Shown piece by piece: positions 45,470 to 46,425 of a stretch of 64,000 nt of DNA. The position numbers and the translations under genes were made by a program. Every line of letters starts with the position of its first letter. Within the stretch, counting starts at the first letter, position 1. Source of the DNA: the human T2T-CHM13v2.0 reference genome, Homo sapiens; contig CP086569.2 of the NCBI GenBank assembly GCA_009914755.4, positions 17,664,001 through 17,728,000 of the forward strand. Reading direction: 5' to 3'. The notes below the pieces were generated by a model. It was given only the letters and a program-made list of their open reading frames with translations, made no database searches and had not been told where the DNA came from.

Positions 45470-46425
45470 ATTGTAATAGCCATTACAAATATATATATGT
45501 TCATTATAGTCATTACAACATTATATATATTATATTCCTTACACTACATACATAGAATAGTGATTATACTGTATATATAGTAGTCATTACACTATATATA
45601 ATAGTCTTTACAATATATACAATAATCGTTACACTATTACATATGTAACAGTCATTACATTATATATATTTTATAGTCCTTTACAATATGTATATTATAC
45701 TCATTACACTATATACTTATTATAGTTGTTACACTTTTATATATAGTATACATAGACACCCACTATTATATGCTATTAAATTACCTGCCTTTTCAATTTA
45801 AGTCAATACATTATTATATGTAATAGTGTAATGATAATACACTATATTATCAATATATAAAAAGCATTACACTATTTCATGTATATGAAGTAATCATTAC
45901 ACTATTCTCTCTATATAAAATAGTCTTTACACTATTATATATTATAGTCATTACACTATATTATACTTATTACACTATATATTATTGTCATTACACTATT
46001 TTATGTATTGTAGTCATTACACCATGTGACAGTCTTTACACTATATATAAATATTTTATAGTTATTACACTATATATAATAGTGATTACACCATATTTTA
46101 ATAATCTTACACTATAGGTAGTGTAATAGTCATATATAATAGTCAATAACTGTATGATAGTCATTACACTATATATAATAGCCATTAAACTACATATACA
46201 TAATAGTCATTACACTATAAAGCAGTCAATACATTATATAATAGTAATTCTGCTATTATGCATATATTATAATCATTATACTATATATAATAGCCATTAC
46301 GCTATGTATATATAATAGTCATTATACATATGTCATTACAGTCTATATATTATAGTTGTTATACAATATAGGTAATAGTGATTACACTATATATTTGTAG
46401 TTATTACACTATACGAGTTCAGCTG
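45470..46425. repeat. AT-rich minisatellite, ~45 degenerate copies of a ~21 bp unit (consensus approximately atagtcattacactatatata)
   Basis: Regular recurrence of …tagtcattacactatatataatag(c/t)ctttacaatatat… across ~950 bp, read directly. Confidence 0.85.

What the first reader, a model, noticed from the sequence alone, without database searches (positions are those of the whole stretch)
45470..46425. AT-rich minisatellite: ~45 degenerate copies of a ~21 bp unit (…atagtcattacactatatata…)
This is a ~950 bp array of a 20-22 bp AT-rich unit (~75% A+T) with strong periodicity, recognisable by eye as …tagtcattacactatatataatag(c/t)ctttacaatatat…. AT-rich minisatellites of similar unit size underlie rare fragile sites such as FRA16B and FRA10B. 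They are highly length-polymorphic and can form stable hairpins. It is not a CRISPR array, because there are no unique spacers and this is eukaryotic DNA. This was the most distinctive non-transposon structure in the window.
Basis: seen in the sequence. Interest (0 to 1): 0.5.

Follow-up and report, generated by a model that had tools for sequence, protein, structure and literature searches.

The report
Old, decayed AT-rich minisatellite

Summary
The array is real. It spans 45477-46413 (937 bp, 78.7% A+T) and holds 39 head-to-tail units. The consensus is TAGTCATTACACTATATATAA. Each unit has a ~16 bp core plus a TA-rich linker of variable length, so units are mostly 19-30 bp (mode 21, mean 24). 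TRF rows with periods of 17-30 bp cover 762 bases, against a mean of 33 in dinucleotide shuffles.

The array is degenerate. Units are about 64% identical pairwise and cores about 82% identical to consensus. Neighbouring units are no more alike than distant ones. The longest exact internal repeat is 24 nt.

The window is primate DNA (L1 ORF1 and reverse transcriptase, 16 Alu matches).

Predicted hairpin formation is ordinary. The unit folds at -1.1 kcal/mol. The whole array folds no better than random windows of the same length and at half the energy of a FRA16B model. The consensus has no specific similarity to the FRA16B unit.

The array is, however, the most AT-rich, least stable and most flexible duplex in the 64 kb.

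Two independent public short-read assemblies are 100% identical to the window across the whole array, which argues against hypervariability.

Verdict: an old, decaying AT-rich minisatellite. Low interest.

The parts
45477..46413 (+). Whole minisatellite: 39 head-to-tail units, consensus TAGTCATTACACTATATATAA, 937 bp, 78.7% A+T, more C than G on the + strand (C 128, G 72).
   Evidence: TRF; segmentation and unit alignment; shuffle controls.
45477..45743 (+). Left sub-array: units 1-11, 21-30 bp each.
   Evidence: segmentation; TRF rows at 45503-45744 (periods 21, 23, 49).
45744..45798 (+). Most degenerate stretch, or interruption. It has a weak unit start (TAGTATACATAGA) followed by 42 nt that no longer match the core (cacccactattatatgctattaaattacctgccttttcaatt).
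   Evidence: unit 12, score 13, 55 bp. No TRF row bridges 45745-45837.
45799..46413 (+). Right sub-array: units 13-39. It includes the best-preserved units, with exact 16-nt cores at 45945, 46158 and 46204.
45805..45860 (.). Local inverted segment. About one unit in reverse orientation (...GTAATAGTGTAATGA...) abuts forward units. This is the only place in the array with hairpin potential above composition (-8.2 kcal/mol, z -2.6).
   Evidence: Inverted-repeat pairs I1, I3, I7-I10, I14 all involve 45812-45853; DNA fold.
45922..46133 (+). Old higher-order duplication of about 5 units (period 116, 1.9 copies, 78% matches).
   Evidence: TRF. No general higher-order periodicity across units.

Best explanation
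This is an old, neutrally decaying AT-rich minisatellite in non-coding primate (most likely human) DNA.

A ~21 bp AT-rich seed (TAGTCATTACACTATATATAA) was amplified head to tail, by replication slippage or unequal exchange, to a few dozen copies. Slippage in the (TA)n-like tail of each unit then made unit lengths unequal (19-30 bp). Point substitutions and one small inversion have since eroded the copies to about 64% pairwise identity. Nothing indicates that it encodes a protein or RNA, or that it is currently being homogenised.

Its only distinctive physical property follows from composition. It is the most AT-rich, most easily melted and most flexible duplex in the window.

Shown: the array, its anatomy, its degeneracy, the lack of recent duplication, ordinary single-strand folding, and an identical allele in three haplotypes. 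Inferred: the amplification mechanism, the age and the neutrality.
For: - Tandem structure far above chance.
- 39 units with a conserved core and a variable TA-rich linker.
- Mean pairwise unit identity 0.64, and 0.66 at lag 1, so there is no neighbour effect or higher-order repeat.
- Core columns are 486/594 = 82% consensus.
- The longest exact internal repeat is 24 nt, so no two-unit block has been copied recently.
- No Rfam family in the window.
- The ORFs in the array are short. They exist because a 21 bp unit equals 7 codons and three consensus frames lack stop codons (and direct reading). No homologues exist beyond the identical sequence.
- Two independent SRA-derived contigs match the window at 1448/1448 and 1400/1400 bases across the entire array.
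- The host sequence is L1- and Alu-rich, AT-rich and without an obvious CpG island.
Against: - Only three haplotypes were compared, and the identity of the two sequencing runs is unknown.
- No orthologous primate sequence could be obtained, so the age is inferred from divergence alone.
- A recent population-scale preprint reports that low-purity tandem-repeat loci are on average more mutable, and that copy number raises the mutation rate (10.1101/2024.08.07.607105). Degeneracy alone therefore does not prove stability.
- The array stands out in flexibility and duplex instability, so a structural or chromatin role cannot be excluded.
Confidence: 0.82

Rival explanations
1. An active, unstable VNTR that resembles the normal (unexpanded) alleles of FRA16B/FRA10B. 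On this reading it is length-polymorphic, forms hairpins during replication and could expand into a rare fragile site.
For: - AT-rich minisatellite with ~39 copies.
- It is a flexibility island: 53% of its 100-bp windows exceed 13.7 degrees, against 1.3% window-wide (dinucleotide values from memory).
- It is the least stable duplex in the 64 kb, at -1.046 against -1.254 +/- 0.06 kcal/mol per step.
- The literature notes that various AT-rich motifs may become fragile when expanded (PMC9714581), and that copy number raises the mutation rate.
Against: - Single-strand folding is ordinary.
- AT/TA dinucleotides make up 44.6%, against 66% in the FRA16C AT-DRS and 73% in a FRA16B model. The longest perfect TA run is 10 nt (PMC6765107).
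- It is 0.94 kb and degenerate, whereas fragile alleles are uninterrupted and several kb long.
- No sequence relation to the FRA16B unit.
- No recent duplication.
- Three of three haplotypes are identical.
Confidence: 0.07
2. The array is not an independent locus. On this reading it is the internal tandem-repeat region of a transposable element, for example an expansion within or next to the old retroposon 3' end that lies immediately downstream, and the same units occur at other genomic copies.
For: - About 30 bp after the array, 46445-47176 reads like the 3' end of an old LINE. It ends in a poly(A) run at 47163-47176 and carries a nested Alu at 46620-46880 flanked by ACCTACTT (read directly).
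- The family assignment is from memory only.
Against: - No other copy of the unit lies in the other 63 kb.
- No L1 ORF2-like coding remnant lies within 7 kb upstream by tblastx against the window's own L1.
- Neither flank matches anything else in the window apart from Alu.
- The periodic peptides that pure arrays would encode are not found among 5.8 billion proteins. This is weak evidence, because human DNA is sparse in that collection.
- The unit and the flank motif give only chance hits in the viral, metagenome and prokaryote collections.
Confidence: 0.08
3. A functional cis-element whose activity depends on the repeated core or on easy unwinding. Candidates are a matrix-attachment or base-unpairing region, a DNA-unwinding element near a replication origin, or a cluster of binding sites for a factor that recognises TCATTACAC.
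For: - It has the lowest duplex stability and highest flexibility in the window.
- The + strand is G-poor, with 15 G-free runs of >=20 nt, which recalls the ATC-sequence context of base-unpairing regions (from memory).
- The central TTACA of the core is the best-kept part (T 37/37, A 35/38).
Against: - Core conservation is partly circular, because units were defined by matching the core.
- G and C positions decay fastest, as expected under AT-biased neutral mutation.
- No cross-species data are available.
- No promoter, CpG island or RNA family is nearby.
- Nothing in these tools measures binding.
Confidence: 0.03

Closest known systems
Generic human AT-rich minisatellites (tandem repeats with 10-100 bp units, as listed by Tandem Repeats Finder)
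   Same: Head-to-tail units of ~21-24 bp, ~39 copies, ~0.9 kb, non-coding, strand-asymmetric base composition, and internal variants that include a higher-order duplication.
   Different: Nothing essential. It is more degenerate than the classical hypervariable loci, and its unit length varies because of a TA-rich tail.
FRA16B (33 bp) and FRA10B (~42 bp) AT-rich minisatellites
   Same: AT-rich minisatellite class, and an island of high DNA flexibility.
   Different: - Unit of 21-24 bp, against 33 and ~42 bp.
- 78.7% A+T, against ~91-94%.
- 0.94 kb and degenerate, against multi-kb uninterrupted expansions in fragile alleles.
- About half the predicted single-strand folding energy.
- No specific sequence similarity.
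AT-dinucleotide-rich sequences (AT-DRS) / flexibility peaks of common fragile sites (FRA16C, FRA16D Flex1)
   Same: It exceeds the 13.7 degree flexibility threshold over about half its length, and it is longer than the 200-250 bp used to call an AT-DRS (PMC6765107).
   Different: - AT/TA dinucleotide content is 44.6%, against 61-71%.
- There are no long perfect (TA)n runs (maximum 10 nt).
- Its 300-nt segments fold at about -21 to -25 kcal/mol rather than < -40.
- It is well below the >=3 kb class associated with fragility.
Human satellite 1A (SAR), the AT-rich 42 bp (17+25) pericentromeric satellite
   Same: Similar A+T content (77%, against 78.7% here), and 42 is twice 21 (PMC9909926).
   Different: - No period-42 signal in TRF or autocorrelation.
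- It is a 0.9 kb island in L1- and Alu-rich euchromatin-like sequence rather than a long pericentromeric array.

Membership tests
Minisatellite (tandem repeat, unit 10-100 bp) | Head-to-tail copies of a unit of 10-100 bp, present in many copies and beyond chance | tested here: met
   39 units, mode 21 bp. TRF coverage is 762 bases against a mean of 33 in shuffles.
VNTR (variable-number tandem repeat) | Copy number differs between haplotypes | tested here: inconclusive
   The window and two Logan assemblies (SRR24119528, SRR33158305) are identical in length and sequence over the whole array. Only three haplotypes were compared and the provenance of the runs is unknown.
FRA16B/FRA10B-type fragile AT-rich minisatellite | 33 bp or ~42 bp unit with >90% A+T | tested here: not met
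   Unit 21-24 bp, 78.7% A+T, against the values in PMC2875025 and PMC9714581.
FRA16B/FRA10B-type fragile AT-rich minisatellite | Uninterrupted expansion to several kb (>5 kb, or up to 2000 copies) in fragile alleles | tested here: not met
   0.94 kb and degenerate, with the same length in three haplotypes. Rare expanded alleles cannot be excluded.
FRA16B/FRA10B-type fragile AT-rich minisatellite | Sequence related to the FRA16B 33-mer | tested here: not met
   Local alignment score 21, against shuffled-unit controls of 16.3 +/- 4.2 (maximum 27).
FRA16B/FRA10B-type fragile AT-rich minisatellite | Strong secondary-structure formation by the single strands | tested here: not met
   -83.5 kcal/mol, against -159.9 for a FRA16B model and -92.7 +/- 24 for random windows. 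The unit has z -0.4. This is prediction only, with no experiment.
AT-DRS / flexibility island of common fragile sites | 100-bp windows with mean twist flexibility >13.7 degrees | tested here: met
   53% of windows in the array, against 1.3% in the whole 64 kb. The dinucleotide values were recalled from memory.
AT-DRS / flexibility island of common fragile sites | Very high AT/TA dinucleotide content (~60-70%) and >=7 consecutive 300-nt segments with dG < -40 kcal/mol | tested here: not met
   44.6% AT/TA, and segments at about -21 to -25 kcal/mol. The criteria come from PMC6765107. ViennaRNA DNA parameters were used instead of Mfold.
CRISPR array | Near-identical repeats separated by unique spacers of similar length, in a prokaryotic or viral genome | tested here: not met
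   Cores are separated by 0-22 nt of TA-rich linker (42 nt at the interruption). The host is primate DNA with L1 and Alu.
Human satellite 1A (SAR) | 42 bp period (17+25) | tested here: not met
   No period-42 row in TRF, and lag 42 is not among the top autocorrelation lags.
Human satellite 1A (SAR) | Sequence similarity to the SAR consensus | not tested
   The consensus is not printed in the paper read and is not available to these tools.
Transposon-internal tandem repeat | The array lies inside an annotated TE model and recurs at other copies of that TE | not testable with these tools
   No Dfam/RepeatMasker library or human genome was available. Within the window there is no second copy.

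The most novel reading that the evidence does not exclude
The array could be more than debris. It is the largest flexibility and low-melting island in the 64 kb, built from a G-poor repeated core. It might therefore act as a base-unpairing or matrix-attachment region, or as a replication-perturbing site, and rare expanded alleles might create an unmapped distamycin/BrdU-type rare fragile site with a new (21 bp) unit.
Probability: 0.04. Interest if true: 0.4.

Novelty: already known. Interest (0 to 1): 0.1.

Why it matters
It matters little. AT-rich minisatellites of this size are common in primate genomes, and any TRF-based annotation would list this one.

The useful result is negative. The resemblance to FRA16B/FRA10B is only one of class. 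On unit size, composition, length, purity, predicted structure and the three haplotypes available, this array does not behave like fragile-site DNA.

Two practical points:
- A 21 bp unit equals 7 codons, and three consensus frames are open. Arrays like this therefore produce spurious ORFs that automated gene callers record.
- That artefact made it possible to pull other haplotypes of the locus out of a protein-indexed assembly collection.

Tried and rejected
- Literature search for the unit as a text string, both strands: no paper. The same search for the flank motif found nothing.
- Exact-pattern scans of the viral, metagenome and prokaryote collections with TCATTACACTATATATAATAG gave only single hits in giant-virus and bacterial contigs. 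The two viral loci checked with TRF held no arrays. These collections therefore gave no human or primate comparison. The flank motif TTTATTGGAACACAGCC likewise gave only chance viral hits.
- Rfam on the whole window: nothing at gathering thresholds.
- Quasi-palindromic unit idea (TATAGT-CATTAC-ACTATA): rejected as a meaningful structure. The fold is -1.1 kcal/mol and no better than shuffles.
- Higher-order repeat or recent homogenisation: rejected.
- TE origin through the window's own L1: tblastx and blastn of 38000-48500 against 4500-11500 found nothing.
- Additional haplotypes through other ORFs near or in the array: four look-ups found nothing on record. The cluster look-up and a homology search with the 84-aa ORF found only the ORF itself.
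- Dispersed-family test with the periodic peptides (SHYTIYN)n, (VITLYII)n and (IYSVMTI)n: no hit.
- Provenance of the two SRA runs: not found in papers.
- Denoeud et al. 2003, on predicting minisatellite polymorphism, is not held in the library. Eslami Rasekh et al. 2021 had nothing relevant to AT-rich or purity criteria.

Full report
**Observation**

The sequence between 45470 and 46425 is visibly periodic. Tandem Repeats Finder returns a stack of overlapping rows between 45503 and 46413. Their periods are 19, 21 and 23 (63-76% matches, 5-20% indels), with longer periods of 49, 60, 66 and 116.

A 16-nt core, TAGTCATTACACTATA, scanned with up to 3 mismatches, hits 25 times inside the array and once in the remaining 63 kb. 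The 21-mer TCATTACACTATATATAATAG with up to 3 mismatches occurs 6 times in the window, 5 of them in the array, against 0.00 expected from dinucleotide shuffles.

On 100 dinucleotide-preserving shuffles of the array, TRF rows with period 17-30 cover a mean of 33 bases (maximum 181), against 762 observed. The best shuffle score is 98, against 245 observed. The array is therefore real and far beyond chance.

**Anatomy**

Alignment-based segmentation gives 39 units from 45477 to 46413 (937 bp).

- Consensus: TAGTCATTACACTATATATAA. Exact 21-mers lie at 45581 and 46158, and exact 16-nt cores also at 45945 and 46204.
- Unit structure: a ~16 bp core followed by a TA-rich linker, 0-22 nt long in ordinary units and 42 nt at the interruption. 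Most units are therefore 19-30 bp (mode 21, median 23, mean 24).
- Composition: 78.7% A+T, with C (128) exceeding G (72) on the + strand.
- Layout: a left part of 11 units (45477-45743), a very degenerate 55 bp stretch (45744-45798), and a right part of 27 units (45799-46413).
- Around 45812-45853 roughly one unit lies in reverse orientation.

**State of decay**

- Units are on average 64% identical to each other.
- Adjacent units (66%) are barely more alike than distant ones, and there is no repeating pattern across unit lags.
- Core columns match the consensus in 486 of 594 cells, or 82%. This figure is somewhat inflated, because units were found by matching the core.
- The longest exact repeat inside the array is 24 nt, just over one unit. 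No block of two or more units has been copied recently.
- One older duplication of about five units survives at 78% identity (45922-46133).

I read this as an old array that is no longer being homogenised. The age is an inference from divergence, since no orthologous sequence was available.

**Host sequence**

The window carries L1 ORF1 and reverse-transcriptase domains at 5865-8992, and another L1 ORF1 at 32813-33271. It contains no Rfam family.

It is AT-rich, with no obvious CpG island. It is primate DNA, most likely human.

About 30 bp beyond the array, 46445-47176 reads like the 3' end of an old LINE. It ends in a poly(A) run and carries a nested Alu. That family assignment rests on memory and could not be tested. 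No L1 coding remnant lies upstream of the array, and neither flank recurs in the window apart from Alu.

**Testing the fragile-site and hairpin analogy**

According to the papers read:
- FRA16B is a 33 bp unit (ATATATTATATATTATATCTAATAATATATC/ATA). Normal chromosomes carry 7-12 copies and fragile ones up to 2000 (PMC2875025).
- FRA10B is a ~42 bp unit with 91% A+T, and is fragile above ~5 kb (PMC9714581).
- For AT-dinucleotide-rich fragile DNA, PMC6765107 gives benchmarks: 61-71% AT/TA dinucleotides, flexibility peaks above 13.7 degrees, at least 7 consecutive 300-nt segments below -40 kcal/mol, and a length of at least 3 kb for association with fragile bands.

Measured here:

| Property | This array | Comparison |
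|---|---|---|
| Unit fold | -1.1 kcal/mol, z -0.4 | no better than shuffles |
| Whole-array fold | -83.5 kcal/mol | own shuffles -70.9 +/- 5.1, z -2.5, 20 shuffles |
| Whole-array fold | -83.5 kcal/mol | random 937-nt windows of the same 64 kb, -92.7 +/- 24 |
| Whole-array fold | -83.5 kcal/mol | FRA16B model -159.9; (AT)n -345.7 |
| 300-nt segments | about -21 to -25 kcal/mol | window mean -25.0 |
| AT/TA dinucleotides | 44.6% | window 17.3%; FRA16B model 72.8% |
| Longest perfect TA run | 10 nt | |
| Alignment to the FRA16B unit | score 21 | shuffled units 16.3 +/- 4.2, maximum 27 |

The only local structure above composition is at the inverted unit, 45805-45860 (-8.2 kcal/mol, z -2.6).

On the other side of the ledger, the array is the most AT-rich and thermodynamically least stable 937 bp of the window. 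It scores -1.046 against -1.254 +/- 0.06 kcal/mol per step. 53% of its 100-bp windows pass the flexibility threshold, against 1.3% window-wide (dinucleotide values from memory).

So it shares the class and the flexibility of fragile AT-rich DNA. It does not share the unit, purity, length or predicted structure.

**Polymorphism**

None of the DNA collections held primate sequence. An 84-codon ORF that straddles the left edge of the array (45259-45513, minus strand) is on record as a called gene in two Logan assemblies of public sequencing runs. Both contigs span the whole array and match the window at 1448/1448 and 1400/1400 bases, without a gap.

The look-up was conditioned only on the 255 bp ORF, of which 37 bp (about one and a half units) lie inside the array, and not on the rest of the array. 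Three haplotypes with one allele argue against hypervariability but not against ordinary polymorphism.

I also note that a population-scale preprint finds low-purity loci more mutable on average, and finds that mutation rate rises with copy number. Degeneracy is therefore not proof of stability. Further look-ups, a cluster look-up and a homology search added no more haplotypes.

**Dispersed family?**

The unit occurs nowhere else in the window. Because 21 bp is 7 codons, pure arrays would encode (SHYTIYN)n, (VITLYII)n or (IYSVMTI)n. A search with these peptides against 5.8 billion proteins found nothing. This is weak evidence, because human DNA is sparse in that collection. The question needs a human genome search.

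**Conclusion**

This is an ordinary, old, degenerate AT-rich minisatellite. The classification as an AT-rich minisatellite, and not CRISPR, is right. The suggested hairpin formation, similarity to FRA16B/FRA10B and high polymorphism are not supported by the tests that could be run.

Interest is low. The residual novel reading, a structural chromatin or replication element or a latent fragile site, has a probability of a few percent.

Noticed in passing
window 44384-44865: About 600 bp upstream of the array lies a compound microsatellite block: a degenerate (GATA)n/(GGAT)n tract of ~360 bp with 55 and 120 bp higher-order periods, followed by (AT)n(AC)n at 44788-44840.
   Followed up: no
window 14177-14634, 23664-24343, 2646-2969, 21098-21301, 22840-22950: The window is unusually rich in long tetranucleotide arrays. 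(TATC)n occurs twice, and the second copy has a 225 bp unit duplicated at 90% identity (23728-24208). There are also (TTCC)n/(TTTC)n and (AAAG)n arrays, and a 96% pure (TATTT)22.
   Followed up: no
window 46445-47176: Immediately right of the array is what looks like the 3' end of an old LINE. It starts ...TTTTATTGGAACACAGCC... and resumes as ...TGTAGCCCACAAAGTTAAAAAGATTTACTGTTTGGCTTTTTACAG + poly(A). It is split by a ~570 bp insertion that includes an old minus-strand Alu (about 46620-46880) flanked by ACCTACTT. The family assignment is from memory only; text and viral-contig searches gave nothing.
   Followed up: partly
window 43114-43512: A ~165 bp segment (…TGTGTTACAAATGG(C/T)TCCAAAGACAAG… plus a CT-rich tract) is tandemly duplicated at 74-85% identity, and a third partial copy of its first 38 nt lies at 43114.
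   Followed up: no
window 5865-8992 and 32813-33271: L1 elements on the + strand. ORF1 domains (Transposase_22, trimerisation, dsRBD) lie at 5865-6613 and RVT_1 at 8297-8992, both in broken reading frames. A second L1 ORF1 lies at 32813-33271.
   Followed up: partly
window 45259-45513 (minus strand); loci L011, L012: A chance 84-codon ORF at the edge of the array has been recorded as a 'gene' in two Logan assemblies (SRR24119528, SRR33158305). It has no Pfam hit and no homologue. The 21 bp unit equals 7 codons with three stop-free frames, which explains several ORFs inside the array. Both contigs are 100% identical to the window, so the window's species DNA is present in those runs.
   Followed up: yes
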